DNA of 64,000 nucleotides from Candidatus Woesearchaeota archaeon. Lineage in GTDB: Archaea; Nanobdellota; Nanobdellia; Woesearchaeales; JAGVYU01. Within the stretch, counting starts at the first letter, position 1; each line of letters begins with the position of its first letter. A model generated the notes under the pieces. That model searched no databases. It had not been told where the DNA came from and saw only the letters and a program-made list of their open reading frames with translations. The stretch spans positions 3,109 through 67,108 of the forward strand of contig JAGVYU010000061.1 in the NCBI GenBank assembly GCA_018303105.1, in the 5' to 3' direction. Below are positions 4,206 to 27,388 of the stretch, piece after piece. Both the position numbers and the translations under genes were made by a program.

Positions 4206-4228
4206 GATGGTTTTGGAAGTGCCTCTCT

Positions 4229-5113: not shown

Positions 5114-5452
5114 ATGCAAAGAAAACCGTTCAGGCAACCTGAAGCGCCCGAGGCGCAGATTGCACGCATATTTTTACCGCGTGATAAGCAGGTATTCGGA
5201 CTTCTTGAGCAGAGGCTTGGCGCTTCGCGAATCAGAGTGCGCTGCCTTGATGGCAAGACTCGGATCTGCAGGATTCCAGGAAGGCTCAAGAGGAAGTTAT
5301 GGGTGCGTGAGGGCGATATCGTGATTGTGGAGCCCTGGGAGTTTGGGGGAGACGCGAAAGGCGATGTCGTGTACAAGTATACGCCCACGCAAGTGCAGTT
5401 TTTGAAGAATAAGGGCTATCTGAAACAGCTTGATGAGTTCTCAGAGTTTTAA
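5114..5452 (+). CDS. eif1a: Translation initiation factor aIF-1A
   Basis: GKTRICRIPGRLKRKLWVREGDIVIVEPWEF is the S1-like OB fold of eIF-1A. A TATA-like cttataaa box sits about 25 nt upstream, consistent with a leaderless mRNA. Confidence 0.9.
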   Translation: MQRKPFRQPEAPEAQIARIFLPRDKQVFGLLEQRLGASRIRVRCLDGKTRICRIPGRLKRKLWVREGDIVIVEPWEFGGDAKGDVVYKYTPTQVQFLKNKGYLKQLDEFSEF

Positions 5453-12913: not shown

Positions 12914-13233
12914 ACCTCTTTTTCAATATAGCTACGGAAACCACTATTTAAAGGTTACGAGCGAAGTTAAGATGAATGAATCGTTTGTTAGAAGGCAACA
13001 ACAAGAATGGCTTCGGACGACCTCATTGCATTCGGCCTCCTCGGGACTCCGGAGGTTATGGAAATCGCAAATTTCCAGAACTTCTGGAAACCCTTCAGGT
13101 TTCCATAAGAGCCAACCCTCCCCTCGGCCTCGCCTACGGCGCCAGAACTGGAGTTGAAGTCCGCCGCCTGCAACCGGCGCCGCGGTGACCACATTTAGAG
13201 GGTTTTGTAGTCATCTCTATAGATAGCAAATCC

Positions 13234-13692
13234 ATGAAATCGATAATGAGAGTGTTAGTATTACAAACATATAAGGAGTATTTAGCATTATTTGTTAGTA
13301 TCATTAACACGTTATCACTACTAACCATAAAGCTTAAATATTACCCCATGGTTATTATAGCTAACATGACCTCAAAGCAGCACATTCTCACATTCAAGCG
13401 CTCTGCTGATGCAGTATACGCTATGGGGGACTTTACAAGCGCCACGATTCTGTACTTTAAAACGCTCTTTGCTCTCCATGATTATCTCTTGCTCGAGAAA
13501 ATTGGATATGCTCCTAAAGATCACACAGAACGATTCAGGCTCCTGCAACAAGAGTTTCCGGAACTCTATGCCGAGTTAGACGCTGAATTCAACACGTACA
13601 GAAGTACATACACAAGAATTGCCTCCAAGGAGACATGCAATCGTATAAAAAAGATGATTGAACATGCCATCACTACTCACCACATTGCATAA
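13234..13692 (+). CDS. HEPN-like helical protein, upstream partner of an MNT
   Basis: It is alpha-helical and overlaps the start of the downstream nucleotidyltransferase ORF, so the arrangement looks like an operon. Confidence 0.35.
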   Translation: MKSIMRVLVLQTYKEYLALFVSIINTLSLLTIKLKYYPMVIIANMTSKQHILTFKRSADAVYAMGDFTSATILYFKTLFALHDYLLLEKIGYAPKDHTERFRLLQQEFPELYAELDAEFNTYRSTYTRIASKETCNRIKKMIEHAITTHHIA

Positions 13693-14254
13693 AGCGGCAA
13701 AGGCCGTTTACAACGAGTATAAAGACAAAATAGAAGATATCATTCTCCTAGGGTCATTCATGAAGGGAAAAGAAGATCCAGAGGACATTGATGTGCTCAT
13801 CATTTTTAAGGAACAGGTGGATAAGCCTGTTGAGTCTGCGTTGAAAAAGGCATTGCATTTGAACAACTTGGACTTGAATTCGATCACACTCCAGGAACTT
13901 GAGGGAGACGGATTCATTGCCAAAGAGGGCGTTTACCTTGAAGGGTTTAGTCTTCTCCGGAATGCCCCTGTGAGCTCGAGGCTTGGGTTCTACAGTGTCG
14001 CATTCCTTTGCTATAATTTGAGTTCTCTTAAAGGATCTGCGCGCGTGAGATTCTACTACGCGCTTCAGGGAAGAGGTGTTGCTCCCGGATTTCTTAAAAC
14101 CCTGCAGGCAGCGCGATATTCTGACAATATCATACTCTGCGCATATGGAGAGATCGAGAAGCTAAAAAGTTTTTTTGAACAGTGGAAGATTCCGTATGTG
14201 ACTACACCCGCCCTGATTCCAAAAAGGTTGAAGCAAGTGCTGTTGGGGAAGTGA
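13658..14254 (+). CDS. Nucleotidyltransferase-domain protein (MNT-like) with a C-terminal extension
   Basis: IILLGSFMKGKEDPEDIDVLIIF fits the GS..DxD nucleotidyltransferase motif. Confidence 0.55.
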   Translation: MNMPSLLTTLHKAAKAVYNEYKDKIEDIILLGSFMKGKEDPEDIDVLIIFKEQVDKPVESALKKALHLNNLDLNSITLQELEGDGFIAKEGVYLEGFSLLRNAPVSSRLGFYSVAFLCYNLSSLKGSARVRFYYALQGRGVAPGFLKTLQAARYSDNIILCAYGEIEKLKSFFEQWKIPYVTTPALIPKRLKQVLLGK

Positions 14255-14293
14255 TTCACAATGAGTCGTGGGACTAGATAGAAATGATGGCTG

Positions 14294-14590
14294 TTGAGGG
14301 GAGGGTCATGCACTATTGAAATGGTGCTGGAGTTGGAAGGGTTGTGGTGGATATCTGTGTGTTTACCCGCAAGCATTATAAAGAATCCGGAAGTGAGTAT
14401 CCTAATGAGCAGTTATATTTGTAATGTATGCAAAAATCCAGTTGAACACGATGAAAATACCCAGATATTAGAGTTTAATGGTTATTTTGTCTGTAGCGGA
14501 TGCTACCTAAAGCTGAATGGAGCAGAGCTATCTGATATTAAAGAGATACTTTTGAGAATTGAAAAGAAGATTGATTCAAAGATGAAATAG
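14294..14590 (+). CDS. Small zinc-ribbon protein
   Basis: It has two CxxC pairs (CNVCKN ... CSGCY). Confidence 0.3.
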   Translation: MRGGSCTIEMVLELEGLWWISVCLPASIIKNPEVSILMSSYICNVCKNPVEHDENTQILEFNGYFVCSGCYLKLNGAELSDIKEILLRIEKKIDSKMK

Positions 14591-14905
14591 TTCTAGTTGC
14601 CATAAGAGACAATATGTGTCGGTAATGATCTATTATCCCTACGCTGGTTAGCGTGAAGTTACTCAACTGAATTCTTTTTGGTTCCATACGTTTTAGCACA
14701 GAATCTTGCTGACTTTTTGTGGTTTTTCTACCATGCTAAATGATAATCTCTTCAGAGATTGCTTAGCAAAGATTTACATGATGGCAAAACCCAATATGTA
14801 CATGGGCCTCGCCCAAAGTGAGGTCTAGGCGTTAACTAAAGACAGGGGATCACAATGTACGTTGGACTATAACAAGATTTATATAATCTCGGTAGTACGG
14901 GCGTC

Positions 14906-15298
14906 ATGTGGGGTTTAGTGGGAAAGATATACCTGATCATTGTGCTTCTTTTTGTGCTGTCGTGCGCCCCTCTAAGCAGAGAATACGTTAACAATTGTGA
15001 ACAATCCGGGGGAGATTATACTTCTGGTTTCTCTGAAACCAAAGGCCAATATTATTTTTGTGAATGTCCAGATGGCAAATACGAATCAGGAGGGATCTGT
15101 CACGATATCGCTGCTCAACAGGTGGAACTCTGCGAAAAAGTATCTAACAAATTTGTAAACTGTGCGGTTGATGGCAGCGAGTGCATATGCACATTTATAG
15201 ATTCTGGAACAGTCTCTTTTTTACCAATTGGAGTATTGGAAACTTCAAATTGTGAATGCTTTGATGGAGGATGTGGATGCGGACCAAACCTAAACTAA
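14906..15298 (+). CDS. Small Cys-rich secreted lipoprotein
   Basis: A signal peptide ends in the lipobox LFVLSC. The protein has 16 Cys and overlaps the start of the giant gene. Confidence 0.4.
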   Translation: MWGLVGKIYLIIVLLFVLSCAPLSREYVNNCEQSGGDYTSGFSETKGQYYFCECPDGKYESGGICHDIAAQQVELCEKVSNKFVNCAVDGSECICTFIDSGTVSFLPIGVLETSNCECFDGGCGCGPNLN

Positions 15299-18200
15299 TG
15301 GCGTTGCTGAATATATCCGTCTTTTTTCTCTTCATCCTTGTCCAAGTAGCTTATGCTGATTTAGAAGGATATGTGTATAAAGTTAAAGACGGACCAGAAG
15401 GATACTACGCAAGTTCTTCATTTTCTTCAGGAACGCTTCATTTTTTCTTCGATAACGCTGAGGAAATTTCAACTCAACTAAATGAAGATGGCTCTTTTGA
15501 GATCGATCCGGGTGACCTGTTTTGTTGGGAGGGGTGTAATATTTACCCTGCAATCACCCTAAAAGAAATTCGCGTATATGAGGGGGAAGAGCCCCTAAGT
15601 TCATTATTAATCCCTTATTCAAATATAAATCAGTCATACAATGCTATCAATCCCGTTTTTATAAATTTATTTTTAGATAACAAAGAGATTAATGACGACG
15701 TGATAACCTGGGATTCATCGTTTATAAGTGCTGAAGACCTAATTGGAATACAATCCTCGGAGGAATCTATTTATTTTGTGTCCTGGAATGGAACAATAGT
15801 TATCCCAGAGGAGGAGGAATATTTTTTTAGTTTTGAGGGGATGGGAAGTGTAAACTTTTGGATTGATGGTCAACAGGGGATATTCAAAGGTAAGGTGGGG
15901 GAGGGAATAAAACTTACTCCGGGAGAACACGAACTAAGAGCAGAATATTTTATACTCAATAGTACTTCATCTCCGAATATACTTTGGCGATACAACGAGG
16001 TTTCTGGGTTTGTCCCTTTGGAAAATCTTCGAATTACTTCAGGAGAATCCAAGAAAGTAATGAAGGACTCGCGTTTCCAGACGTTATCATTATCTGATTA
16101 TGGACTTTCTGAGATTTATCCATCTTGGAGCTGGTGGGGATATGTTACGTACAATACGCAAAAAAGACCATTACTTTTGATACATGGTTGGTCTAATAAT
16201 AATCTCGGTCCAGCGCAGACTAATCTCTGGACACAGTGGGGGACATTGCCGGGGGGCTTGGAGAATTTGGGAGATGAAATACTTGAAGTGGTTTATAACC
16301 CTGCAAATTTGGACAATCGGAAAAATGCGGGAATGCTGAATTTAGTCCTGTCCCAAATAAAGAATTACGGCTATAATTTTGAAAAAATAGATGTTGCCGC
16401 TCATAGCATGGGCGGATTAGCTGTCAGGGGGTATATACAAAACATGGGATTAACATCGAGTGGGAACTCTGTTTCATACGGATCTAACATTAGGAAAGCG
16501 ATATTTATTGGTAGTCCACTCCAGGGAACATATTTAGCAAATCTGATAAATGATGGATATAACTTCCCAGGTTCCTGTGATGCTTTGGATTTTTTCTTCA
16601 ACCTCAATGTAGTATCAGAGGCTACCAAGAACATGGAAATTGGTAGTGATTACTTATGGAACTTGAATACTGCATCTTTCAACAGCAATGTTGATTACTT
16701 AACGATCGGAGGATTTAATCAGTATGTTGCCTGCTTATATAATAGTAATATGGTAGAGGATGGCGTTGTGCCTATGAGCAGCTCCAACTTATTAGGGTAT
16801 AACGTCCCACATATTACACTAGATAGAGTCCACACAACAATCGTGGACAATCCGCAGGTGCTCGGAGTTATCGATGATTTTCTAAATAATCGAGGAACAA
16901 ATGAAATTAAATCCAACTTATATTATTCAGGAGAGTATTATATTGATCCAAGCTCCCATTATTATTTGGCACTAGGAGGTATTACCATTTCATTCACGGA
17001 CAAAAATCGGGTGACCGGAGTTCAAATTTATAACCCGACTACCGGATGGAAGAATTTATACCAAAATTCAAGAACCAAACGGTGGTTTTATCTTAATCCA
17101 GTTCCGCCAAATTTCAATTTTAACTCGTTTACAACTGAACTTCCTGTAGGGACTTACAACATTTACTATAATGAAGGGTCGGGTTTCTTTTATTCGGGTC
17201 AAAATGCATATATAGACTATGACAGTACAACTTATGTAACAATAAATAACTTGGATTCTGACAACGACGGAATAAAAGATGTAAACGATAACTGTCCTTA
17301 TAGTTATAACCCAAATCAAGCCAATTATGATGGAGATTCTGCCGGAGATAACTGTGACCCAGATGATGATAATGATGGGTTCAATGATAATCAGGATGTT
17401 TGCCAGTTTCAATATGGAACGTGTAGGGGCTGTCCGTTAAATCCAAATTGGACATTAAATTCAACTTGGTCTGCATGCACTGTCCAAGATACACAATTCA
17501 AAAATTATTATGACACAAATATGTGCGGGCAGACACCTCCACCTCCAGTATCGCAAGCTTGCAATTTCTGCAATTACTCACCAACTAACACCAGCTGGTC
17601 CTTTTTTGCTAACGTAAGCTTATGCCGCACCAACGACACTCAGCTTATCAATGTGAGCAGAAAAGAATACGATTCAAATTACGCATCCTGCTATCAAATT
17701 ACGGGGATTTCATTCGACCTTTGGAACAATGGGCAGAATAAGACCCATTACACAACAAATCAAACATCCTGTGATTACTGCTATCCAATACCCCTGAACT
17801 CCTCATGGGGCGACTGGTACAATATCACTGTATGTAGAGCGAATAAGACTAAAGTCCAGGAGAGGGAAAAAACCGAGTTTGACTCCGCCTACAGCATGTG
17901 CTATGCTCTTACACAGAATCCATTAGATAAATGGAATAATGGGAACAACAAAACGCACTATCAGCAGACAACGATACCCTGTTGTGATCCTATCCTTACA
18001 AATACATCGCCCAGTCAGTGGACAAACGTCTCCTGCCTAATCAATGATACTATGAATCAAACTCGGTTCAAGATAGAGTATGATTCTAATAGTTGCGGTA
18101 CGGTCCAAAACAGAACAATTATTGAATACCAACAAATAGAAAAATGCGACTTCTGCAAACCAAATCCTATAAACACGAGCTGGAGTCCATGGCAAAACGC

Positions 18201-20067
18201 GACTCAGTGTATGCCCAATGATAAGTATGTCCAGAATTCCTCCAAGACAGAGTACGATGCTAATTATCAAAGTTGTTATGCAGTGACTAATTTATCCACT
18301 GATCGATGGAATAATGGCATTAATAAGACTTATTGGAATTTCACAAACAAGACGTGCGACTTCTGCACTCCCTCGTGGAGTTGCTCAGGATACGGCGCTT
18401 GTCAGATGAATGGAACTCAGAGGTGCAATGCCGCACTCGATGCAAACTCCTGTTTCGCCCAGACCCATCTAAATAATGATAATTACCCGGGCAATTATTC
18501 AGAATTCCCAACGAACATGTGCCCCATCGAGTGCTCAACGAATTCTGATTGCAATGATGGGAATCAAAGCACAGAGGATAGCTGCATTAACGCCTCAACG
18601 ATAATCTCTAACTGTACATATTCCACTATCAACTGCTTCACAGACTCTGAATGTGGCGAGACTGGATTTATTGGCTCTTTGTTCTGCGGGGGTAATGATA
18701 TTCAACAGAATTATCAAACCGCCACTTGTTCCAATCCGGGAACGTCACAAAGCAATTGTTCCGTAACACTCTCTCCAGAATACATCCAAACGTGCGATTT
18801 TGCATGCTTTGAAGGAGTGTGCAAGGAGTGCGATGAAGATGCGGACTGTAATGACAACAATGCTGCAACAGAGGACACTTGTCAAAATGAGGGAACGTCA
18901 AATGCCATTTGCAGAAGTCTACCCATCAGATGCTTCACTGATATAGATTGCGGAATTAACGGTTACGAAGGAGATGAGTTTTGTAGCGGAGATAATATCC
19001 AACAAGAGTACAGATCATTTACATGCTTAGATCCAGCAACATCCGATAGCTCCTGCACATCGAGTACAACACCGTTAACCAATAATATTTGCGATTACGC
19101 CTGCCTCGAAGGCTCATGCATTCGATGCAATGAAAACGCTGATTGTAATGACAACAATAGCCTAACAGCAGACACTTGTATTAACCCTGCAACATTCCAA
19201 AGCAATTGCTCAAACAAACTTAGTCCTCTAGTTATCAACTCTCCTGCGGATGCAGTATTCGGTGTAAAACGTATTCCCGTAAATATCTCCACGAATGAAG
19301 CCATTGATGAAATAACATACCGGGATTTACGAGATGCCCGAGGCAGAGAAAGAACACTATGTAGTAGAGGATGCGAAGGCTACGGCAATGACAAGAAGAA
19401 AACCATCACCTTTAATGACGGGGAGCATGAAGTCAGCTTTAAAGCATACAACCCAACAGGACAGGTTATAGACGAAGAGATCGTAACTTTTAGGGTAGAC
19501 AGCAAAAAACCAAAAATAACCAAAACAAGCCCAACATCAGGATTTGGAACGGGAATTTTTGAGGTGGAGTTTAAAGAAGAAAACCCTGCAGAGCTCATGC
19601 TCCATTATGGCAGCGAAGATCCAAGACTGGTTAACATAGAAGATGAATGCACGTTGGAGAAGGATACATACGCCTGCGCGCCAGAAGTGGATGTATCCCA
19701 GTATGATGGAAGCTCTTTGAGCTATTGGTTTGGCCTTAAAGACATTGCTGGAAGTATGGACTCTTCGCGACCGCGTAGTATTGATGTGGATATAACACCG
19801 CCAGTCATCAATTCATTTGGCTTCCCGCCACCTGATGGAAGAAGCGTCACATTTACATTCAACGTAACTGAACAGAACTTCGATTCCATCAAATATGAAG
19901 ATTGGAGCAACGGAAAGCCAAAAACAGGCACACTCTGCACACGATTAAAGAATGGGATATGTGAAGCTAGGAAAACATTTAGTAAAGGAAGTCATAACGT
20001 CATCTTTACAATAGCAGATTATGCGGGGAATGAAGAGCAAACGAGTGCGGTGTTTACGATAACATAG
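15271..20067 (+). CDS. Giant secreted surface protein: PGAP1-like lipase domain, thrombospondin type-3 calcium-binding repeats, and two families of Cys-rich repeats rich in N-glycosylation sequons
   Basis: A signal peptide is present. AAHSMGGLAVRGY is the GHSMGG nucleophile elbow. DSDNDGIKDVNDNCPYSYNPNQANYDGDSAGDNCDPDDDNDGFND is a TSP3-type DxDxDG repeat. A roughly 60-aa module (CxxC...NxSW...YDSNYxSCY...WNNGxNKTHY) occurs at least 5 times. A second roughly 95-aa module (CxTDxDCG...NCS...CDxAC.EG.C..C.E.ADCND.N..T.D.C) occurs 3 times. There are dozens of NxS/T sites. Confidence 0.8.
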   Translation: MWMRTKPKLMALLNISVFFLFILVQVAYADLEGYVYKVKDGPEGYYASSSFSSGTLHFFFDNAEEISTQLNEDGSFEIDPGDLFCWEGCNIYPAITLKEIRVYEGEEPLSSLLIPYSNINQSYNAINPVFINLFLDNKEINDDVITWDSSFISAEDLIGIQSSEESIYFVSWNGTIVIPEEEEYFFSFEGMGSVNFWIDGQQGIFKGKVGEGIKLTPGEHELRAEYFILNSTSSPNILWRYNEVSGFVPLENLRITSGESKKVMKDSRFQTLSLSDYGLSEIYPSWSWWGYVTYNTQKRPLLLIHGWSNNNLGPAQTNLWTQWGTLPGGLENLGDEILEVVYNPANLDNRKNAGMLNLVLSQIKNYGYNFEKIDVAAHSMGGLAVRGYIQNMGLTSSGNSVSYGSNIRKAIFIGSPLQGTYLANLINDGYNFPGSCDALDFFFNLNVVSEATKNMEIGSDYLWNLNTASFNSNVDYLTIGGFNQYVACLYNSNMVEDGVVPMSSSNLLGYNVPHITLDRVHTTIVDNPQVLGVIDDFLNNRGTNEIKSNLYYSGEYYIDPSSHYYLALGGITISFTDKNRVTGVQIYNPTTGWKNLYQNSRTKRWFYLNPVPPNFNFNSFTTELPVGTYNIYYNEGSGFFYSGQNAYIDYDSTTYVTINNLDSDNDGIKDVNDNCPYSYNPNQANYDGDSAGDNCDPDDDNDGFNDNQDVCQFQYGTCRGCPLNPNWTLNSTWSACTVQDTQFKNYYDTNMCGQTPPPPVSQACNFCNYSPTNTSWSFFANVSLCRTNDTQLINVSRKEYDSNYASCYQITGISFDLWNNGQNKTHYTTNQTSCDYCYPIPLNSSWGDWYNITVCRANKTKVQEREKTEFDSAYSMCYALTQNPLDKWNNGNNKTHYQQTTIPCCDPILTNTSPSQWTNVSCLINDTMNQTRFKIEYDSNSCGTVQNRTIIEYQQIEKCDFCKPNPINTSWSPWQNATQCMPNDKYVQNSSKTEYDANYQSCYAVTNLSTDRWNNGINKTYWNFTNKTCDFCTPSWSCSGYGACQMNGTQRCNAALDANSCFAQTHLNNDNYPGNYSEFPTNMCPIECSTNSDCNDGNQSTEDSCINASTIISNCTYSTINCFTDSECGETGFIGSLFCGGNDIQQNYQTATCSNPGTSQSNCSVTLSPEYIQTCDFACFEGVCKECDEDADCNDNNAATEDTCQNEGTSNAICRSLPIRCFTDIDCGINGYEGDEFCSGDNIQQEYRSFTCLDPATSDSSCTSSTTPLTNNICDYACLEGSCIRCNENADCNDNNSLTADTCINPATFQSNCSNKLSPLVINSPADAVFGVKRIPVNISTNEAIDEITYRDLRDARGRERTLCSRGCEGYGNDKKKTITFNDGEHEVSFKAYNPTGQVIDEEIVTFRVDSKKPKITKTSPTSGFGTGIFEVEFKEENPAELMLHYGSEDPRLVNIEDECTLEKDTYACAPEVDVSQYDGSSLSYWFGLKDIAGSMDSSRPRSIDVDITPPVINSFGFPPPDGRSVTFTFNVTEQNFDSIKYEDWSNGKPKTGTLCTRLKNGICEARKTFSKGSHNVIFTIADYAGNEEQTSAVFTIT

Positions 20068-20207
20068 CTTTTCTGGAAACCCCCGGAACTATTCCGACGC
20101 TCTCCCAAAGGTTTAAATAGATAAACTTTTGAAAGATAACTCATGGCTTTTATGACAATTAAAGCTCCCACCAGCAATCTTTTTAAACGTTCTAATAACC
20201 ACAGAGG

Positions 20208-21026
20208 ATGGTGAGGGGTGTGTTGCTAACAAAAGATGAGGCTATATGCCTCATATTGAAACTGTCAAAAAACGGAGAAGTCTCGTCTCCAACTAAATTA
20301 AACAAGCTGCTGGCAAGATTAAACCTCTTCTTTATTCCCATTGAATTTAAATTTTCATTGAATAAGTTTGGTTCCTTTAGCGCTGACGTATCTGATTTGC
20401 AGGACAACGATTATTTTGGCGTGGTGCCCTATGAGTATATGGGAAAAATCACCAGGAAATTCGTGTTAAAACCGGAAGGAAGCGTACTTTTTGCACAGAC
20501 CATCAAGCCAAAGATTGATAAGATACTTAAACCAGAAGAATTCGAGGAACTGAAAGAAACGATTCAACATCTTAGCTCATTACGCGCAGCTGAAATTTCT
20601 GATAATGAACACAAAAAACTTCTTGTTGATATTGATGACCGGTTTAAGCTCGCACAAAAGATCAACTCAACATTTGTAGAACTGTCTGAGATTTACCAGA
20701 AGATAAACACGATACAAGAGAACACCATTGCAGAAATAGGGTTAAAAGCATTGATAGAATACTGTTATCACCTCATCAAGTATTTGAAGGAAAAAAGGTT
20801 TAAACACCTTCCAGAGGAGGAATATGATTTTGATGCTCACATGTTTGACTATTATTTCTTGGAGAACGTATCCAAAATAATACCTTTTTTAAATGAACAA
20901 ATCTCGAGTCAGGAGAAAGATGCTATAAAAATAAATAAGTTTTATCAATATTTTGTAAATTCCGTAAGAGAGGAGTATCCCTTCTCGATTGATAATAAGC
21001 ATCTGAAAGAATTGATCACTTGCTGA
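20208..21026 (+). CDS. Hypothetical protein in the AT-rich cassette
   Basis: Open reading frame with codon usage distinct from its neighbours (about 35% GC) and a helical C-terminal half. Confidence 0.4.
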   Translation: MVRGVLLTKDEAICLILKLSKNGEVSSPTKLNKLLARLNLFFIPIEFKFSLNKFGSFSADVSDLQDNDYFGVVPYEYMGKITRKFVLKPEGSVLFAQTIKPKIDKILKPEEFEELKETIQHLSSLRAAEISDNEHKKLLVDIDDRFKLAQKINSTFVELSEIYQKINTIQENTIAEIGLKALIEYCYHLIKYLKEKRFKHLPEEEYDFDAHMFDYYFLENVSKIIPFLNEQISSQEKDAIKINKFYQYFVNSVREEYPFSIDNKHLKELITC

Positions 21027-21610
21027 CCATGCCAAATACGTATGCCTTCGATGATTGCTCAATCTTAAAATTGTGTTCAATACATATCCCGGTAGCATTT
21101 CAGGCATTCTTCCATAAAACCAGCGTGACTGCAAAAAACGGTAATAACGTGAAAGCACTCATTGATAAGCTGGCAGCGGCGGGATATCCCAAGTATAGAT
21201 TTGTCCCTTCTGAGAATATGGATGGGAACATAATAAAAGTTGCGAACCAGCTCTTAGAAGGATACAATATTCGTATGCTTTCCCCCGTATTCAAATACGA
21301 AGTTATAGGTCAATTAAAGGAGTTTAATGGCCGGATTAACGAAGAATTCCTGAAGATCAATAAAGGGGAGGATATTGCTGAGATTAAACAAATGTTTAAA
21401 CAAAGTATAAGAGAACTCAGTAAACAGGATTCTATGCCTCAGGATGACGACTTAAAGATTATTCAAGGATACTGCAAGTTTGAATGCGCTGGAGACAAAT
21501 ATCTCATTACTGAAGACGAACATTTTTGGGGTTATGCGGATTTAATTCTTAAACGATATAATATCTATGTAGTTAAAGAATGGGAATGTCATACCCTCAG
21601 TATCTCATAA
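21020..21610 (+). CDS. Hypothetical protein in the AT-rich cassette
   Basis: It overlaps the previous ORF by 7 nt, which suggests an operon. Confidence 0.4.
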   Translation: MLTMPNTYAFDDCSILKLCSIHIPVAFQAFFHKTSVTAKNGNNVKALIDKLAAAGYPKYRFVPSENMDGNIIKVANQLLEGYNIRMLSPVFKYEVIGQLKEFNGRINEEFLKINKGEDIAEIKQMFKQSIRELSKQDSMPQDDDLKIIQGYCKFECAGDKYLITEDEHFWGYADLILKRYNIYVVKEWECHTLSIS

Positions 21611-21650
21611 TCCCATGATTACCGACAAATAAATCTTTAAGTGGAGTAAA

Positions 21651-21890
21651 ATGACACAATGCCATCATTGCGGTGGACAAATGAAAAAGAGCGTAGATTT
21701 GATTATCCATAGTGGAAGAACTATTCCGCAAAGAGCACTGAAATGCGTTTCCTGCGGCAAATCCACCGTGAGCATGGAGGAGTACGAACGGGTCAGGAAG
21801 GTTCTGCATCCTTCTCTTTTTGATAAAATCAGGTCTTTTTTTAAGCCCAGCACGGAAGCCGTTGATCTTTTTAAGGGAAGGGTTCTTTAA
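21651..21890 (+). CDS. Small zinc-ribbon protein
   Basis: CHHCGG...CVSCGK gives two CxxC pairs. Confidence 0.4.
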   Translation: MTQCHHCGGQMKKSVDLIIHSGRTIPQRALKCVSCGKSTVSMEEYERVRKVLHPSLFDKIRSFFKPSTEAVDLFKGRVL

Positions 21891-21893
21891 TTT

Positions 21894-23351
21894 TTATAAT
21901 AGACTCTGCCTTTTTTGCTGCCGGGATTTAGGGGAGAAATATGAATGATCATCAAACATTCTCTCAATCTCTTTCAGGCTGAGGAATATGCCGTGTATCT
22001 CTTTGATTCTTGTTATGGCCTTTTCCGTGAATCCGTTTTTTGATATAAATATAAATTTGTATTCTCCCAAAAATGGGATGAGCTTGGATTTTTTCATCAA
22101 GCTATCGACAACGTCTATATCGACTGGCGCATTGGTCCATTTTACCTCTCCGACAAGTATCTTTCTGGATTTGTGATTATATGCGACAATATCTATTTCT
22201 TCGCCGGTCCTGTTCCACCAAGCGCCAATATTTTCAAAATCGAGAACATACTCATCTACCTCTTTGTTTATGTAGGTGATAAGCAGCTCTTTGCATATTC
22301 CCTCGAATACCCTCCCAACGTATGCATTAAGGTTTTCTTTAATTTCATCTTCTACAAGTTTACTATTGCCGATATTAAGGGCAGTCTGATTTGGAAATAC
22401 AAACCGATACCAAAAACTAAAGAAATTATCTTTTAATCCGTACCTTCCAAGCCGTTCCTTGCCCAGTACAGGGTCTTTTCTTCCCAGCAGATCTAGCAAT
22501 TCATCAAGTCTTTTTATGTATGCAGGCATAGTATTTACATCAATTCCTGTAAAATCATGGATTTCTTTGATCGTTTCCTTACCTGCAGAAGCTGCCTGCA
22601 ATATCGAGTTATATTTAGCATGTATTCGCACATTCTCGTATTCAAGCAAGTTTTTTGGCTCTTCAAATAATTCTGCTCCTTTCTTTAGTAATAGCTCATA
22701 TATTTTTTTGTGGATGTCTCCCCCTACTCTTTTGACTTTTTCAAGATAATAAGGTGTACCGCCAAAGACCGCATAGGTAGTTATTTTTTCTTCTTCATTT
22801 AACTCTTTAAACATTAATCTGAAATCAGAATATTTAAAAGGAGCTATTTTTATCCTTGCTGCTCGCCCATATAACGCTCCTGCTTTGCTATTCGTTATCT
22901 TTTGTATCATGCCAATTGATGAGCCAACAAGGAGGAGCATAAGTTTTTTATTCTTTAACTTTTGATCCCAATAATTCTGTAATTCTGTTATAAACTGGGG
23001 TGAAATTTCCAGAAACCTTTGGAATTCATCAATGACTAAGACAAAAACCGTATCCGACTTTCCCGCTATAAAATCCAAAAAATCGCTAAAATCTGCAAAC
23101 GCTCTCACTTCGCCTAGTTGCTCTTGAACTGTTTTCGATAAAGAGTCTAGTATTCCTTGCTTTTCCACCAGATCTACATAGAAATACAGTTTATTTTCCG
23201 GCAGTGATTTAATAAACTGCCGTATTAACTCTGTTTTACCTACTCTTCGCCTTCCATAGACAACGAACATTTTGCCAGACTGCAAATTAGCAAACTCTTC
23301 TTTTAGCAGTTTGAACTCCTGCTTCCTATCGTAAAACGTGCTGTTTTCCAT
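21894..23351 (-). CDS. Archaeal-ATPase family protein (PF01637-like AAA) with a C-terminal DUF234/PD-(D/E)xK-like domain
   Basis: Walker A is VVYGRRRVGKTELI and Walker B is VLVIDEFQ. The C-terminus reads EIDIVAYNH...ILVGEVKW, a D...E.K nuclease-like motif. Confidence 0.75.
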   Translation of the reverse strand: MENSTFYDRKQEFKLLKEEFANLQSGKMFVVYGRRRVGKTELIRQFIKSLPENKLYFYVDLVEKQGILDSLSKTVQEQLGEVRAFADFSDFLDFIAGKSDTVFVLVIDEFQRFLEISPQFITELQNYWDQKLKNKKLMLLLVGSSIGMIQKITNSKAGALYGRAARIKIAPFKYSDFRLMFKELNEEEKITTYAVFGGTPYYLEKVKRVGGDIHKKIYELLLKKGAELFEEPKNLLEYENVRIHAKYNSILQAASAGKETIKEIHDFTGIDVNTMPAYIKRLDELLDLLGRKDPVLGKERLGRYGLKDNFFSFWYRFVFPNQTALNIGNSKLVEDEIKENLNAYVGRVFEGICKELLITYINKEVDEYVLDFENIGAWWNRTGEEIDIVAYNHKSRKILVGEVKWTNAPVDIDVVDSLMKKSKLIPFLGEYKFIFISKNGFTEKAITRIKEIHGIFLSLKEIERMFDDHSYFSPKSRQQKRQSLL

Positions 23352-23476
23352 TTTATATTAGCATGATAATGTTATAACATTAACAAACTAATGTTATATA
23401 TAAATCTTTCGAATTTGGCCATATTAATTACTATGGCCGCGCTCGAAGTACTTGGGGATGAAGGGATGAAAGTTAA

Positions 23477-23603
23477 TCCGGCTTAAAGAACAACCTCTGC
23501 GTAGCACGAACGACCTTTAGCAAGGGAAACCACAATGTCCTCTTTACGATAGCAGATGATGCAGCAAATAACGAGCAAACGAGTGCGGTGTTAACAATTT
23601 GAT
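23477..23603 (+). pseudogene. Remnant of the last roughly 42 codons of a paralogue of the giant surface-protein gene
   Basis: It translates as SGLKNNLCVARTTFSKGNHNVLFTIADDAANNEQTSAVLTI*. The end of the 15271..20067 gene reads LKNGICEARKTFSKGSHNVIFTIADYAGNEEQTSAVFTIT*. The two are about 80% identical in nucleotides over 80 bp. An in-frame stop lies immediately upstream of the fragment. Confidence 0.55.
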
Positions 23604-23835
23604 ACTCCAGCAATTCCACACAGACTTAGTCAAGATGGACGTCTCAATAGAAGATGCGGAAAAGCTCTTTAAAGAAGCAATACAAACCTTAAAAGAAGAA
23701 ATTCCGTATAAAGCGGAAGACTGCCAGTATTGTGTATACATAGACGAAAATAATGCGTAACTCCACATTCTAACTCGGAATTATTCCGACAAATTCTAAG
23801 AAGCCTATGTAAACCCCATAATTTAAATCTAAGGC

Positions 23836-24189
23836 ATGCAGACAAGGATCAGAGCAGAAAATCCTGAGAAAATCAAAAGCATTCTGAGAACATACAAAGA
23901 GCAGGATATTGAGTATAATGAGGTTAATGACCACTTTAACCACAAACTAAAGAGAGAAGGTGTCAACAAGCAGGATGTGATAAGAAACCTATTAAACCCA
24001 GAAAACCTAATATTCGTCGGGGTCTCAAAATCGAAAAATCCACGGTTTGAGTATGTCCATGATCTTTACTTCAAAATTGGCAAAAACAGAATCATAAAAA
24101 TACCGACGAGCATGAAAGCGAAATCTTTATATCTTATCACAATAATCGGAATGAGGAGGATTGATGATGAAGCGCGAAAATACGAGTAA
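23836..24189 (+). CDS. DUF4258-like small protein (putative toxin of a DUF4258/DUF2283 pair)
   Basis: Size and overlap with the downstream DUF2283-like ORF support the pairing. This is a weak motif-level call. Confidence 0.35.
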   Translation: MQTRIRAENPEKIKSILRTYKEQDIEYNEVNDHFNHKLKREGVNKQDVIRNLLNPENLIFVGVSKSKNPRFEYVHDLYFKIGKNRIIKIPTSMKAKSLYLITIIGMRRIDDEARKYE

Positions 24190-24520
24190 GGAAATGGAAT
24201 TCAGCTATGATGCAATAAATGACTTACTCTATGTCTATAAAAAAGACACAAAAGTTGACTACAACGAGGCTATCGGAGATATTCACATCGAATTCACAAA
24301 ATCCGGAAAAGCTATCGGTGTTGAGATCCTGAACGCCTCGGATATCCTCAAGGAATTTGACATCCCTCAGAAGATGCTTGATCATTTAACCGGAGCTGAA
24401 CTAAAAGTTGTAAAAAACGGAGCCGCATTCTTGGTTTTGCTTACACTCCATTCTGAAAACAATGAGAAATCAGCGATGATCGCGCTGAGTCCAACGGCAC
24501 AAGCGATTCACGCGGTATAA
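24161..24520 (+). CDS. DUF2283-like small protein
   Basis: MEFSYDAINDLLYVYKK...IHIEFTKSGKAIGVEILNAS is the DUF2283 pattern (YD...D.LY..F, then G...G.EI..AS). Confidence 0.45.
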   Translation: MMMKRENTSKEMEFSYDAINDLLYVYKKDTKVDYNEAIGDIHIEFTKSGKAIGVEILNASDILKEFDIPQKMLDHLTGAELKVVKNGAAFLVLLTLHSENNEKSAMIALSPTAQAIHAV

Positions 24521-24618
24521 ACATCCATACCCTTGTCCTAAACTATTTGTTTATTAGAGAAACATTTATATATCAGTTGATATTTTAATAGTATCAATTG
24601 ATACTTTGAGGGATCAAT

Positions 24619-24903
24619 ATGCAAAAACTCACCAAAAAGAAAAATAGTTTTACCGGACGCTACCCTAACCTCAATACTGTCTTAATGGTCGAAGATTATC
24701 TCAATAGTCATAGGGATATTCCCATCACACTTGCTGAGTTAAGAACCGTATTACCGAGACAGGTCATGAACCAAACCTTAAAAATAATTCTTGAGTACCT
24801 TTGGGCAAGCGGAAAAATCATTTATGGGCCACGCGGAGTACAATGGATTTATCAGGAGCCGGATCACATTAAGAAGATGCTGGAGAATAGCCTGGAGATC
24901 TAG
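24619..24903 (+). CDS. Small winged-helix-like protein
   Basis: A 94-aa ORF. ITLAELRTVLPRQVMNQTLKIILEYLWASGKIIY reads as a helix-turn-helix plus wing. Confidence 0.3.
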   Translation: MQKLTKKKNSFTGRYPNLNTVLMVEDYLNSHRDIPITLAELRTVLPRQVMNQTLKIILEYLWASGKIIYGPRGVQWIYQEPDHIKKMLENSLEI

Positions 24904-24949
24904 CATGTACTTTGGAAAAGAAGTCATCCTCGCCATTGTTGCTGCAGAA

Positions 24950-25618
24950 CTAATTCGAGAACGGATTCACGTTCAACGGCATATACTTCATAATCTTGAA
25001 GATTATTGTTTCCGGATAAATTTGGATCATGCCCTTCCTAAACTGCGAAGCGAAGAGCGTTGGATCCCCTGAACCCACAACATAGATGCGAATAAGCTCA
25101 TTGAACACATACGCCCTTAATTCATGCGGTTTTTCAAAAAACAACTCTTGAGATGTTGCGTTTAAAATCGCGTCATCGGAGAGCAATTGAAGTATATGCT
25201 GTTTCTCAAACGACTGCCCGGCCACGATGATTTTGAGATCGTCCATGCCCTCAAACATCGCTTTTTCATAAATAATGAGTTTATACACCTCTCCCTGAGC
25301 TTCCTCTTTGCGGTCTTGACTCCACAGAGCTTCGAAAGCATGGAGTTCGCCAGAAGTAAGCGGCAATGCTTCCGCGGGCGTTACTGTAAATCCAGAAAGC
25401 ACTCTGCCCTGATCCATGAGGATCACGAGCTTATTCTGCGTTGGCATATTCTCGCGGAGGTCCCGAACATCCTGATATGTCATATAACCCAGGGCGAGCA
25501 CAGCAAGAACGAGCAGGATTCCAGCTACAAAAAATGCAGTGATGATCTTCTTCACAAACCACCAAACGACAAGAATGACCGCAACATAGATGATAATCGT
25601 GATGAGCAATGGATTCAT
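24950..25618 (-). CDS. Membrane protein, hypothetical
   Basis: It has two N-terminal TM helices followed by a soluble domain. Confidence 0.4.
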   Translation of the reverse strand: MNPLLITIIIYVAVILVVWWFVKKIITAFFVAGILLVLAVLALGYMTYQDVRDLRENMPTQNKLVILMDQGRVLSGFTVTPAEALPLTSGELHAFEALWSQDRKEEAQGEVYKLIIYEKAMFEGMDDLKIIVAGQSFEKQHILQLLSDDAILNATSQELFFEKPHELRAYVFNELIRIYVVGSGDPTLFASQFRKGMIQIYPETIIFKIMKYMPLNVNPFSN

Positions 25619-26256
25619 ACGCGCTTTCTACCCTTGCGGTTATTTAATCTTTGCGTTTTCCCCCATGCGACAATCAACGCGTGAAACTCGTTATAAACTT
25701 TGAAATCGTGTGGAAGCTCACGCATACAGCGCTGTTGAATCTCATCATATGTTTTTTCCTTGAAGCCATGGAGGGCAAATAATCGCTTTGTATACGCGTC
25801 GACAACGAAAATTGGACGCCTGAACGCATACAAAAGGATTGAATCCGCGGTTTCAGGGCCAATGCCATGCACATGAAGAAGTTTTTCCCTCTGTTTCTCA
25901 AGAGAGAGCATGCGAAAATAAGGATTCCGCTTGAAAAATGATGCGATTTCCTTCAATTTTATCGCTTTCTGATTAAAATAACCCGAAGAGCGAATGCATG
26001 TTGCGAGTGTTGACTTTGGACATTTCAGCAGAGCAGAAAACGAGAGCAGTTTATTTTTTCTTAATTGCTCAAGCGCCTTCTCCACATTCTTCCAAGATGT
26101 GTTTTGCGTGAGGATCGCGCCTATGATAATTTCCTCGCGTTGTTGTTGATTCCTCGGACACGAATAATCACGCGGATGATATTTTCCCGCGATGGGCCAC
26201 CAGCCTTGAGGATGATGGTTCTTGAGAAGCATTTTGAAAAGGGTTTGCATATGCAT
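25615..26256 (-). CDS. HhH-GPD base-excision DNA glycosylase (endonuclease III family)
   Basis: LHVHGIGPETADSILLYAFRRPIFVVDAYTKRLF is the helix-hairpin-helix GPD motif with a catalytic Asp. Confidence 0.75.
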   Translation of the reverse strand: MHMQTLFKMLLKNHHPQGWWPIAGKYHPRDYSCPRNQQQREEIIIGAILTQNTSWKNVEKALEQLRKNKLLSFSALLKCPKSTLATCIRSSGYFNQKAIKLKEIASFFKRNPYFRMLSLEKQREKLLHVHGIGPETADSILLYAFRRPIFVVDAYTKRLFALHGFKEKTYDEIQQRCMRELPHDFKVYNEFHALIVAWGKTQRLNNRKGRKRV

Positions 26257-26305
26257 CAGTCATGAAATGTAAACCGCAATTAAAGCATTATGTGATTACT
26301 TTAGA

Positions 26306-27388
26306 GTGACTACTATACAAATATTTAAAAAGAGGGAACACTTAGCAGCGCCTATGGTGGAAAAAACGTTCTTCAGGACAAGAAGTATCGCTGAGCGAAG
26401 GCATCTCCGCAGAAGGCGCGTCTATGGAGTAAAGAATATTGTTGAAAGAGTACTCCAAGAGATTGATCCAACAACAGACTGCCTTGAAGTCAGGGCGCAA
26501 TTGCTTCCCCCGACATTGCAGCATTTGCCATCTGCCATTGCATCGCGGAAGAACCTCAGGCATGGACATTATCTAAGGCTCCCCGTACCAAAAACATGGG
26601 AACAAGCGATTGCAATGAAGGAATCCCCGCTGGAACTTGTCGCACGCGAGATAGATAGCTTACACTTCGTCCAACCTGAAAACCTCCATTTTCTCGGATA
26701 CCAATGGACAGCTCCCCTCGGACGAGGAGTTGATAACAGGCCAAGGATGGCGCCATTCGCATTTATCGATGAGGCAGCGCGATTGCACGCATACATGCAC
26801 CAGGCGCCCGGAAGGGTGAAGGATTATTCTGCTGCCCAAAGAGTCCAGCGTGAAGGAGCGGTATTCATCGTCACGATTCCATCTAGAACAGAGAAAAAAC
26901 AACAGTACACGATACAACTCGCACATGTGCCAATACATGATGATCCGGCACGAAAAGCGTCCGTCTGGCTGCTTGGAACAACCCAACGAAGCGACGTGTC
27001 AGAACACGAGCTGCACCAGTTTGGATACCGGCTCATGCAGGACCAGAGGGGAAGCGACTTTTACATGTTCTATCCGCAAACCATTGCGGCATACTTTCTT
27101 ATAGCCGCAACGCTTGCGCGGCCACGCAAGGCAAATCTCATTCCAAGGCATACTTCACCATTTGCGATGCCGTCAAAAGAGCACGCTGAGTTTTATCGCA
27201 GGCTCCTTAACAATACGCTCATTTACGATGCCCAAGTAAAAGCGCCGGAACATCTCAGACCCTTGCATCTCGATGAAATCAGCAGGCTCATCGGAATCTA
27301 CATCGCGCGCGTTGGCGCTGAGCGCGCTATCTGGTACCAAGACCGCGACGGCGGCATCAAAGACTATGATTACAGCATACCACGATGA
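26306..27388 (+). CDS. Hypothetical protein, first gene of a GC-rich two-gene operon
   Basis: A 360-aa ORF with a 4-nt overlap (ATGA) onto the next gene. No recognised motif. Confidence 0.45.
   Translation: MTTIQIFKKREHLAAPMVEKTFFRTRSIAERRHLRRRRVYGVKNIVERVLQEIDPTTDCLEVRAQLLPPTLQHLPSAIASRKNLRHGHYLRLPVPKTWEQAIAMKESPLELVAREIDSLHFVQPENLHFLGYQWTAPLGRGVDNRPRMAPFAFIDEAARLHAYMHQAPGRVKDYSAAQRVQREGAVFIVTIPSRTEKKQQYTIQLAHVPIHDDPARKASVWLLGTTQRSDVSEHELHQFGYRLMQDQRGSDFYMFYPQTIAAYFLIAATLARPRKANLIPRHTSPFAMPSKEHAEFYRRLLNNTLIYDAQVKAPEHLRPLHLDEISRLIGIYIARVGAERAIWYQDRDGGIKDYDYSIPR

What the first reader, a model, noticed from the sequence alone, without database searches (positions are those of the whole stretch)
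20068..23610. AT-rich 3.4 kb cassette between the giant surface-protein gene and a decayed copy of that gene's 3' end
A fragment at 23477-23603 encodes ...LKNNLCVARTTFSKGNHNVLFTIADDAANNEQTSAVLTI*. This is a diverged copy (about 80% nt identity over 80 bp) of the last codons of the 15271..20067 gene, which reads ...LKNGICEARKTFSKGSHNVIFTIADYAGNEEQTSAVFTIT*.

Between the two gene ends lies a block at about 35% GC, against about 42% for the giant gene. It carries four genes:
- three unknown proteins on the plus strand (20208..21026, 21020..21610, and a zinc-ribbon protein at 21651..21890);
- a convergent Arch-ATPase protein (21894..23351), whose C-terminus carries a PD-(D/E)xK-like EIDIV...GEVKW motif.

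The simplest reading is that a second tandem paralogue of the giant gene was replaced by horizontally acquired cargo, and only its C-terminal codons survived. An ATPase-nuclease fusion plus small unknown partners in an AT-rich insertion is the typical signature of a defence or addiction module. None of the three partner proteins matches a family I recognise.
Basis: partly seen in the sequence, partly recalled or inferred. Interest (0 to 1): 0.7.

Follow-up and report, generated by a model that had tools for sequence, protein, structure and literature searches.

The report
Stable cassette between variable surface-protein slots
In a tiny groundwater archaeon (Woesearchaeota), a four-gene block is indeed followed by the leftover tail of a second giant surface-protein gene, but sister strains show the block is an old resident and the genes around it come and go, so this is an ordinary flexible genome region, not a newly inserted defence island.

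Summary
The last 39 codons of the giant gene (15271-20067) recur at 23483-23599, at 74% amino-acid and 80% nucleotide identity. The block between them has the lowest GC in the window (36.8% against 44.4%).

- **Relic:** it comes from a second, once-functional giant-like gene, because 20 of its 31 differences fall at third codon positions.
- **Cassette:** it is not recently inserted cargo. A sister lineage (L018, L012 and four other assemblies) carries the same 3365-bp block between the same flanking genes, with divergence like that of the flanks. That lineage lacks both the giant gene and the relic.
- **What varies:** two intergenic slots, 14248-20103 and 23469-24956.
- **Module:** the four genes are not one conserved unit.
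  - The 272-aa and 193-aa genes are adjacent in 20 of 21 other Woesearchaeota loci. They are AT-rich in every host and sit in unrelated contexts. They model as a winged-helix/helical protein plus a PIN (VapC-fold) nuclease, so I read them as a VapBC-like module.
  - The ATPase_2-DUF234 gene matches PADLOC candidate PDC-S27, which has not been validated.
  - The zinc ribbon and the ATPase accompany the pair only in the closest strains.

The parts
14248..20103 (.). Flexible slot 1. It runs from the stop codon of the nucleotidyltransferase gene to the promoter of the 272-aa gene. Here it holds small ORFs, a 130-aa secreted Cys-rich protein and the giant gene.
   Evidence: The sister lineage L018 has an unrelated 566 bp here. 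Homology with the window stops at 14247 and resumes at 20104.
15271..20067 (+). Giant secreted surface-protein gene (1598 aa). It has a signal-like N-terminus, PA14, a lipase-like alpha/beta hydrolase, TSP3 repeats, Cys-rich repeats and C-terminal Ig-like (Big_13) domains.
   Evidence: ORF. All Pfam matches are weak and below the gathering scores except DUF915, which sits exactly at its cut-off. The protein has 68 Cys and 39 N-x-S/T sequons.
19945..20060 (+). Copy 1 of the direct repeat: the last 39 codons of the intact giant gene.
20104..23468 (.). It is shared with the sister lineage at 96.7% nucleotide identity.
   Evidence: blastn of L018 1704-5067 and L012 693-4056. dS is comparable to the flanking genes and dN/dS is 0.15-0.2 for c272, the zinc ribbon and the ATPase; c193 is nearly identical between lineages (dS 0.009, dN/dS 1.2 from six differences).
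20143..20214 (+). Possible 23-codon leader micro-ORF (MAFMTIKAPTSNLFKRSNNHRGW). Its stop overlaps the start region of the 272-aa gene.
   Evidence: Similar peptides lie in the same position in L018, L019, L039, L020 and L034, but are not recognisable in more distant loci. Tentative.
20208..21026 (+). c272: an N-terminal winged helix followed by an all-alpha helical domain. It is the upstream partner of the PIN protein and belongs to no Pfam family.
21029..21610 (+). c193: a PIN-domain (VapC-fold) nuclease with an insertion of about 60 residues. Its start lies 2 nt after the c272 stop.
21651..21890 (+). 79-aa C4 zinc-ribbon protein.
   Evidence: CxxC at residues 4 and 32. Only sub-threshold zinc-ribbon Pfam hits. 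Found next to the pair only in L012 and L018.
21894..23351 (-). ATPase_2 (P-loop) fused to DUF234, a PD-(D/E)xK domain. It matches PADLOC defence candidate PDC-S27 and is convergent with the zinc-ribbon gene.
   Evidence: Pfam PF01637 E 5.6e-27 and PF03008 E 7e-26. PADLOC PDC-S27 E 1.8e-37. Motif positions. Literature.
23345..23404 (.). AT-rich palindrome and direct repeats in the ATPase upstream region; a likely promoter/operator.
   Evidence: the repeat finder I1 and D13. Its function is inferred.
23469..24956 (.). Flexible slot 2. It lies between the ATPase upstream region and the stop codon of the 222-aa membrane-protein gene. Here it holds two gene relics, a DUF2283 pair and a 94-aa ORF.
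   Evidence: L018 has an unrelated 117 bp here. Homology ends at 23468 and resumes at 24957.
23477..23603 (+). Relic: the last 39 codons plus stop of a second giant-like gene. It is 5'-truncated, with no start codon and a stop codon immediately upstream.
23599..23760 (+). Second relic: the C-terminal 42 or so residues of a Cas4/PDDEXK_1-like nuclease gene.
   Evidence: tblastn of the L015 PDDEXK_1 protein, residues 175-216, against 23614-23739: 38%, E 6.6e-9. PADLOC Cas4 model positions 128-173 of 177, E 0.0019.
23836..24520 (+). Overlapping 117-aa and 119-aa (DUF2283) gene pair with a toxin-antitoxin-like layout.
   Evidence: DUF2283 E 1e-9. The 117-aa partner has no family hit. The TA reading is an inference.
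20085..20097 (+). Palindromic 13-mer GGAAYTATTCCGA. It occurs only here and at 23777-23789.
   Evidence: 3 matches against 0.31 expected. Also present upstream of c272 in L018. Function unknown.

Best explanation
The 3.4-kb block is a long-resident segment of a Rifle-aquifer Woesearchaeota chromosome. It sits between two flexible intergenic slots.

**Contents of the block.**
- An operon of a winged-helix/helical protein (c272) and a PIN-fold nuclease (c193). I read this as a VapBC-like toxin-antitoxin (addiction) module. In that reading the PIN domain cleaves RNA, and the upstream DNA-binding partner neutralises it and represses the operon.
- A small zinc-ribbon protein.
- A separate single-gene ATPase-nuclease, which matches PADLOC candidate PDC-S27.

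**What changes.** The giant surface-protein genes and small toxin-antitoxin-like genes in the two slots turn over. The mechanism I infer is homologous recombination in the conserved flanks together with illegitimate deletions. These events leave 5'-truncated gene tails behind.

**The 'decayed copy'.** The sequence at 23477-23603 is such a tail. It comes from a second giant-like gene that was once functional.

**Shown and inferred.**
- Shown: the repeat, the relic's coding-type divergence, the conserved backbone with two indels, the c272-c193 linkage, the PIN fold and the PDC-S27 match.
- Inferred: toxin-antitoxin function, the recombination mechanism, and which haplotype is ancestral.
For: **Backbone and slots.**
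- L018, the sister MAG RIFOXYD1_FULL_39_9.8, aligns to the window in three blocks: 13135-14247 (97.8%), 20104-23468 (96.7%) and 24957-26374 (96.1%). Unrelated sequence of 566 bp and 117 bp replaces window 14248-20103 and 23469-24956.
- The same arrangement appears in L012 and in at least four independent assemblies.
- The breakpoints fall at gene boundaries.
- Cassette genes and flanks have similar dS, and dN/dS is about 0.15-0.2.

**Relics.**
- The window relic has a 6/5/20 codon-position pattern.
- A second relic, Cas4-like, lies directly next to it.
- In L018 slot 1 holds another 5'-truncated giant-like tail, on the opposite strand: 127 aa, 28.6% identical to giant residues 1469-1598, Big_13 E 7e-4.

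**The c272-c193 pair.**
- It is adjacent in 20 of 21 other loci, and nothing else is conserved around it.
- Its contexts include gyrB, tRNA synthetases, LonB and Kae1.
- c272 has an N-terminal winged helix.

**The ATPase.** Pfam and PADLOC matches. PDC-S27 is described as a single-gene ATPase plus PD-(D/E)xK candidate that is abundant in Archaea and not yet validated (PMC12988326).
Against: - The relic's truncated end abuts the cassette within 8 bp, and the haplotypes diverge exactly there. That would also fit a cassette with defined ends that was inserted into a giant-like gene.
- The c272-c193 pair keeps GC3 at roughly 0.2-0.3 in hosts whose GC3 ranges from 0.21 to 0.51.
  - Its family is small, with 36 clusters at 50% identity.
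  - One member lies beside a tyrosine integrase.
  - Over long time scales the pair may therefore be mobile.
- c193 matches no PIN HMM, so the PIN assignment rests on a predicted structure.
- c272 is three times the size of usual VapB antitoxins, and no toxicity data exist.
- No full-length donor of the relic was found.
Confidence: 0.6

Rival explanations
1. In the common ancestor of both haplotypes, a mobile AT-rich cassette inserted into a second giant gene, or replaced most of it, leaving only the 3' tail. The sister lineage later lost the giant gene and the relic-bearing segment.
For: - The relic's 5' truncation point lies 8 bp from the cassette edge.
- In L018 another truncated giant-like tail also faces the cassette with its truncated end.
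- The cassette has the lowest GC in the window.
- The c272-c193 pair is compositionally foreign in every host and sits in unrelated contexts.
- An integrase lies next to the pair in L017.
Against: - No recombinase, terminal repeats or target duplication in or at the block.
- Divergence of the block equals that of the flanks.
- The zinc ribbon and the ATPase do not travel with the pair elsewhere, so the four genes are not one mobile unit.
- No relatives in viral contigs or PHROGs.
- It needs two further replacement events in the sister lineage whose breakpoints coincide with the cassette edges.
Confidence: 0.2
2. The slot-2 segment (relic, Cas4-like relic, DUF2283 pair, 94-aa ORF) arrived as one ready-made piece of DNA from a related strain. 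In that strain a giant-like gene sat directly upstream of these genes. The piece joined by homologous recombination in the 222-aa gene on one side and by illegitimate joining next to the ATPase promoter on the other. On this view the relic was never a tandem paralogue in this genome.
For: - The sister lineage has only 117 unrelated bp at this position.
- Contig L049 combines a sister-type left half (99.2% to L018) with a window-type slot 2, identical to the window from 23118 onward. Exchange of this slot between lineages would produce exactly that.
- The relic shows no frameshift or internal stop, which fits recent truncation.
Against: - L049 switches type inside the shared ATPase gene, so it may be an assembly chimera of co-occurring strains.
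- No donor arrangement (full-length gene followed by g53/g117) was found.
- It leaves as coincidence that an intact homologous giant gene lies only 3.4 kb away.
Confidence: 0.12
3. An integrative element that targets the 3' end of the giant gene, as prophage e14 does at icd. The element would supply a replacement gene end and displace the original end to its far side. A related idea is that the relic is a silent or orphan C-terminal cassette used to vary the giant protein by recombination, as in Rhs/CdiA orphans.
For: - Direct repeats of a gene's 3' end bracket a foreign-looking block.
- The two copies share an exact 20-mer, GAGCAAACGAGTGCGGTGTT.
Against: - No integrase.
- The repeats are only 74-80% identical.
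- The sister lineage keeps the block but has neither repeat nor the target gene, the opposite of an empty attachment site.
- The relic is the extreme Ig-like tail. It has no variable toxin domain, no immunity gene and no upstream homology tract.
Confidence: 0.04

Closest known systems
VapBC-type (PIN toxin) type II toxin-antitoxin operons
   Same: - The downstream gene has a VapC-like PIN fold with conserved acidic residues.
- The upstream gene carries a DNA-binding (winged-helix) domain and is almost contiguous with it.
- The pair is always inherited together.
   Different: - The upstream partner is about 267 aa with a large helical domain of unknown type; a typical VapB is 70-90 aa.
- The PIN protein carries an insertion of about 60 residues and matches no PIN HMM.
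- The family is small and confined to Woesearchaeota.
- Toxicity and neutralisation are untested.
PADLOC PDC-S27 / COG1672-type archaeal ATPase with DUF234
   Same: - Near-full-length HMM match: residues 7-414 to model positions 5-421 of 474, E 1.8e-37.
- ATPase_2 plus DUF234 architecture.
- DUF234 is classed in the PD-(D/E)xK superfamily (PMC3424549).
   Different: Nothing structural. Antiviral activity of PDC-S27 is itself unproven (PMC12988326). Here it is a stand-alone convergent gene, not part of a system with the other three.
Flexible genomic islets between conserved anchor genes (strain-variable surface-protein and TA loci)
   Same: - Two replacement-type indels lie exactly between conserved genes.
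- Their content is surface proteins, TA-like pairs and gene relics.
   Different: The conserved anchor between the two slots is itself a toxin- or defence-like block. Relics of three different giant-like gene tails are seen across the two haplotypes.
e14/icd-type integration into a gene's 3' end
   Same: A gene's 3' end is duplicated on both sides of an intervening block.
   Different: - No integrase.
- The repeats are highly diverged.
- The block is present without the target gene in a sister strain.

Membership tests
VapBC / PIN-toxin type II TA | Toxin has the PIN fold with the conserved acidic active-site residues | tested here: met
VapBC / PIN-toxin type II TA | Sequence membership in a PIN family model (Pfam/NCBIfam/PADLOC PIN models) | tested here: not met
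   No PIN hit in Pfam, NCBIfam or PADLOC. The profile against PDB sequences gave nothing. hhalign against a bona fide PIN_2 protein gave probability 0.1%.
VapBC / PIN-toxin type II TA | Small upstream antitoxin with a DNA-binding domain, co-transcribed with the toxin | tested here: inconclusive
   The upstream gene ends 2 nt before the PIN gene and has an N-terminal winged helix. However, it is 267-272 aa with an extra helical domain of unknown function.
VapBC / PIN-toxin type II TA | Toxin arrests growth and the antitoxin neutralises it | not testable with these tools
   Requires expression experiments.
PADLOC PDC-S27 | Match to the PDC-S27 HMMs over most of their length | tested here: met
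   PDLC04984 E 1.8e-37, model positions 5-421 of 474. PDLC04985 E 3.6e-37.
PADLOC PDC-S27 | P-loop ATPase fused to a PD-(D/E)xK nuclease domain | tested here: met
   PF01637 covers residues 6-206 and PF03008 covers 314-407. Walker A is at 33, DExx at 106, and the D...ExK motif at 385-403.
PADLOC PDC-S27 | Protects against viruses | not testable with these tools
Integrative element at a gene 3' end (e14/icd type) | Encodes a site-specific recombinase | tested here: not met
   No integrase or transposase domain in any ORF of 20068-24956.
Integrative element at a gene 3' end (e14/icd type) | Related strains show an empty site with the target gene intact and the element absent | tested here: not met
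   The sister lineage shows the reverse: the block is present while the target gene and both repeats are absent.
Rhs/CdiA-type orphan C-terminal modules | The orphan carries a conserved recombination tract, a variable toxin tip and a cognate immunity gene | tested here: not met
   The relic is only the last 39 codons of an Ig-like (Big_13-type) domain. No toxin domain or immunity-like partner is present.
HARP (PIN-like protein-only RNase P) | Closest structural match and a PIN_5-type sequence signature | tested here: not met
DUF2283-containing TA-like pair (slot 2) | DUF2283 domain protein paired with a DUF4258-type partner | tested here: inconclusive
   DUF2283 E 1e-9. The overlapping 117-aa partner matches no family.

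The most novel reading that the evidence does not exclude
The c272-c193 operon, possibly with a conserved 23-27-codon leader ORF, is an undescribed module restricted to Woesearchaeota. It pairs a large winged-helix/helical protein with an insert-bearing PIN nuclease and keeps an AT-rich composition whatever its host's GC. It could be a new kind of addiction or defence system that anchors and stabilises neighbouring variable surface-protein islets. Alternatively it could be a lineage-specific RNA-processing factor and not a toxin at all.
Probability: 0.2. Interest if true: 0.5.

Novelty: new variant of a known kind. Interest (0 to 1): 0.3.

Why it matters
For the finding as posed, the result is deflationary. 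The relic is real, but the block is not a newly landed defence island, and low GC was a misleading cue.

Two modest points of value remain.
- **An uncharacterised gene pair in DPANN archaea.** The pair has no Pfam, NCBIfam, PADLOC or PHROG family, yet gives confident structure models: a winged-helix/helical protein and a PIN nuclease. It is strictly linked and compositionally distinct in every genome that carries it. It is a concrete candidate for a toxin-antitoxin test in a lineage where few such systems have been examined.
- **Turnover of giant surface proteins.** These proteins are thought to mediate contact between DPANN cells and their hosts. The locus shows how they are replaced between near-identical strains, leaving datable 3' relics. 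This could be used to study the rate of surface-protein replacement in natural populations.

Tried and rejected
- **Donor of the relic.** A profile of the giant C-terminus, the relic and the L018 127-aa ORF, searched against the 5.8-billion-protein set, returned only the 127-aa ORF itself. No full-length second giant gene was found.
- **L049 as a third haplotype** (giant-free slot 1 with a window-type slot 2). Its sequence switches from sister type to window type inside the shared ATPase gene, so I treat it as a possible assembly chimera.
- **L055.** This 985-bp contig joins a PNP/MTAP gene fragment to window 23689 onward. It probably results from a chimeric join at a short shared A-rich word, and I did not use it.
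- **Viral origin of c272.** No relatives in IMG/VR, no PHROG and no BFVD structural match at E<=0.001.
- **Sequence-level links to solved structures or PIN families for c272 and c193.** None found.
- **Deep synteny as evidence for vertical descent.**
  - L059 has an HhH-GPD homologue (51% identical) 6 kb downstream of the pair, as in the window.
  - A wider survey found only seven such shared neighbours across 24 loci.
  - By my rough estimate that is no more than chance in genomes of about 1 Mb, so I give it little weight.
- **afdb50 fold search.** The library was unavailable.
- **Bacterial-type promoter and terminator scan.** Not informative for an archaeon.

Full report
**Source and setting.** Every protein of the region is found, identical, on contigs from Rifle aquifer groundwater metagenomes (ANAN16 scaffolds and JGI 3300002502). 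Archaeal markers such as ribosomal protein S8e lie nearby. The closest named genome fragment is Candidatus Woesearchaeota archaeon RIFOXYD1_FULL_39_9.8. The window is therefore a piece of a DPANN (Woesearchaeota) chromosome.

**Check of the observation.**
- The duplicated gene end is real.
  - 19975-20060 against 23513-23598 is 80.2% identical over 86 nt (E 1.4e-15).
  - At protein level, giant residues 1559-1597 match 23483-23599 at 74% (E 2.4e-10).
  - It is the longest direct repeat within 13-26.5 kb.
- No further piece of the giant protein is detectable elsewhere in the window.
- The relic's frame is closed by a stop codon immediately upstream and has no start codon.
- The block between the two copies has 36.8% GC, the lowest of all 3.4-kb windows in the 64 kb. 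The giant gene has 40.7% and the window 44.4%.

**What the relic is.**
- Between the relic and the intact gene's tail there are 31 nucleotide differences in 39 codons, distributed 6/5/20 over codon positions. That makes 13 synonymous and 10 non-synonymous codons.
- By my own arithmetic on those counts, a uniform distribution is rejected (chi-square about 13.6, 2 d.f., p about 0.001).
- The two sequences therefore diverged while both encoded protein.
- The relic is the tail of a distinct, once-functional giant-like gene that lost its 5' 4.7 kb fairly recently, since it has no frameshift or internal stop.
It remains open whether the lost gene was a tandem paralogue or another allele brought in by recombination.

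**What comparative data say about the 'cassette'.**
- A sister lineage is represented by L018 (the RIFOXYD1 MAG), L012 and at least four independent assemblies from other samples.
- It aligns to the window in three blocks: 13135-14247 (97.8%), 20104-23468 (96.7%) and 24957-26374 (96.1%).
- Between those blocks it has 566 bp and 117 bp of unrelated sequence, where the window has 14248-20103 (the giant gene) and 23469-24956 (the relic and what follows).
- The 3365-bp block is therefore the shared backbone, and the segments on either side of it are the variable parts.
- The breakpoints lie at gene boundaries:
  - the stop codon of the nucleotidyltransferase gene;
  - the promoter region of the 272-aa gene;
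  - the upstream region of the ATPase;
  - the stop codon of the 222-aa gene.
- Synonymous divergence between the two lineages is similar in cassette genes and flanks.
  - c272 is 0.16, the zinc ribbon 0.17 and the ATPase 0.07; the flanks are 0.08-0.12.
  - c193 is nearly identical (0.009), which suggests a recent recombination patch.
  - dN/dS is 0.15-0.2 for c272, the zinc ribbon and the ATPase, so these genes are under purifying selection; c193 has too few differences (1 synonymous, 5 non-synonymous; dN/dS 1.2) to tell.
- The block was thus in place before the lineages split and is maintained.
- No recombinase, terminal repeats or target duplication are present.

**More relics.**
- Directly after the giant-like relic, ORF 23599-23760 matches the last 42 residues of a PDDEXK_1/Cas4-like protein (E 6.6e-9 against the L015 protein; Cas4 model C-terminus, E 0.0019).
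- In the sister lineage, slot 1 holds a 127-aa minus-strand ORF. It is a 5'-truncated giant-like C-terminus: 28.6% identity to giant residues 1469-1598, Big_13 E 7e-4.
- Across the two haplotypes there are therefore three different giant-like gene tails around the same backbone.
- This is what repeated gain and loss of surface-protein genes would leave.
- Slot 2 also carries an overlapping 117-aa/DUF2283 pair.

**The four genes are not one module.**
- The 272-aa protein has 94 homologues, all from Woesearchaeota/Nanoarchaeota MAGs.
- An exhaustive profile search of 1.84 billion representatives found only 36 clusters.
- In 20 of 21 loci from other species, its gene is followed within a few bases by a homologue of the 193-aa gene. 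Nothing else around the pair is conserved.
- Neighbours include gyrB, tRNA synthetases, LonB and Kae1.
- The zinc ribbon and the ATPase accompany the pair only in the window and its sister lineage.

**What the proteins are.**
- *c193.*
  - It models confidently (pLDDT 88.3).
  - Asp/Glu residues at 8, 140/141 and 163/164 are invariant.
  - No PIN HMM detects it.
- *c272.*
  - It models at pLDDT 88.4 as an N-terminal winged helix plus an all-alpha domain.
  - Neither it nor its remote relatives have a Pfam domain.
- *The pair.* A DNA-binding protein encoded immediately upstream of a PIN nuclease is the VapBC layout. I therefore read the pair as a VapBC-like module with an unusually large partner. 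That reading is an inference.
- *The ATPase.*
  - It is ATPase_2 plus DUF234 and matches PADLOC PDC-S27 at E 1.8e-37.
  - PDC-S27 is a single-gene candidate, an ATPase fused to a PD-(D/E)xK domain. It is common in Archaea and still unvalidated (PMC12988326).
  - DUF234 is listed in the PD-(D/E)xK superfamily (PMC3424549).

**The AT-richness.**
- In all 20 other genomes the c272-c193 pair is lower in GC than its flanks (mean -8.7 points).
- It is lower at all three codon positions. GC3 stays at roughly 0.2-0.3 while host GC3 ranges from 0.21 to 0.51.
- Low GC is therefore a property of the family, not a mark of a recent insertion at this locus.
- It does leave open that the pair moves between Woesearchaeota over long time scales, as TA modules do. 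Consistent with that, one member lies next to a tyrosine integrase and the family is small.
- No viral link was found.

**Verdict.**
- Its central claim is wrong. The block is not cargo that replaced the paralogue, and it is not a four-gene system.
- The most likely picture is an ordinary flexible region. A resident block, made of a VapBC-like pair, a zinc ribbon and a PDC-S27 candidate, separates two slots in which giant surface-protein genes and small TA-like genes are exchanged and deleted, leaving 3' tails.
- What is new is limited to the uncharacterised winged-helix/PIN pair.

**Limits.**
- Which haplotype is ancestral is unresolved.
- No donor of the relic was found.
- The apparent third haplotype, L049, may be an assembly chimera.
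- The PIN assignment rests on a predicted structure.

Noticed in passing
window 20143-20214; L018 1743-1814; L019 6164-6244; L039 6334-6414; L020 7921-8004; L034 7933-8004: A short ORF of 23-27 codons (MAFM.KRG.IG.IFKY... type) lies just upstream of the 272-aa gene, and its stop overlaps that gene's start. It is recognisable in the closer relatives but not in distant ones. It could be a leader peptide or a third component of the operon.
   Followed up: partly
window 20085-20097 and 23775-23789; L018 about 1683: The palindromic 13-mer GGAAYTATTCCGA occurs only upstream of the 272-aa gene's promoter and upstream of the 117-aa/DUF2283 pair (3 matches against 0.31 expected). It may be a shared operator.
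   Followed up: partly
window 23599-23760: The 53-aa ORF that overlaps the end of the giant-like relic is itself a relic: the C-terminal 42 or so residues of a Cas4/PDDEXK_1-like nuclease. A full-length homologue lies 1 kb downstream of the pair in L015.
   Followed up: yes
L018 1239-1622 (minus strand); also L012 228-611: In the sister lineage the giant gene's place is taken by a 127-aa ORF. It is a 5'-truncated giant-like C-terminus on the opposite strand, annotated in NCBI as a hypothetical protein.
   Followed up: yes
window 21029-21610 compared with L018: The PIN gene is almost identical between the two lineages (dS 0.009), whereas its neighbours differ at dS 0.07-0.17. This suggests a recent recombination patch inside the conserved block.
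   Followed up: no
L049 (Ga0208375_1010633), 1-5409: This contig is sister-type from the nucleotidyltransferase gene through most of the cassette, then identical to the window from 23118 onward, relic included. It is either a real recombinant haplotype or an assembly chimera.
   Followed up: partly
L055 (985 bp), junction at window 23689: A purine-nucleoside-phosphorylase-like gene fragment is fused in frame to the end of the Cas4-like relic, followed by the 117-aa gene at 100% identity. It is probably a chimeric contig.
   Followed up: partly
window 13234-14254: A 152-aa ORF overlaps a 198-aa nucleotidyltransferase (DUF6932/Polbeta/NTP_transf_2; PADLOC PDC-S09 E 1.3e-7). This looks like an MNT-type TA or defence-candidate pair. 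It forms the left anchor of slot 1.
   Followed up: partly
L017/L036 11839-13116 and 19440-20288: In Woesearchaeota RIFCSPLOWO2_12_FULL_46_25 a tyrosine integrase lies about 300 bp downstream of the annotated end of the c193 homologue, and a Bro-N protein lies nearby. This may be an integrated element that carries the pair.
   Followed up: no
L059 2399-3033: In another relative, the space downstream of the pair holds a canonical RHH_12 + PIN_2 TA pair, with an HhH-GPD gene 6 kb downstream as in the window. The slot after the pair seems to collect TA modules in several lineages.
   Followed up: partly
window 40051-40134: ARAGORN calls a tRNA-Leu(CAG) here, but the Rfam gathering-threshold scan of the whole window returned no family at all, not even tRNA.
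   Followed up: no
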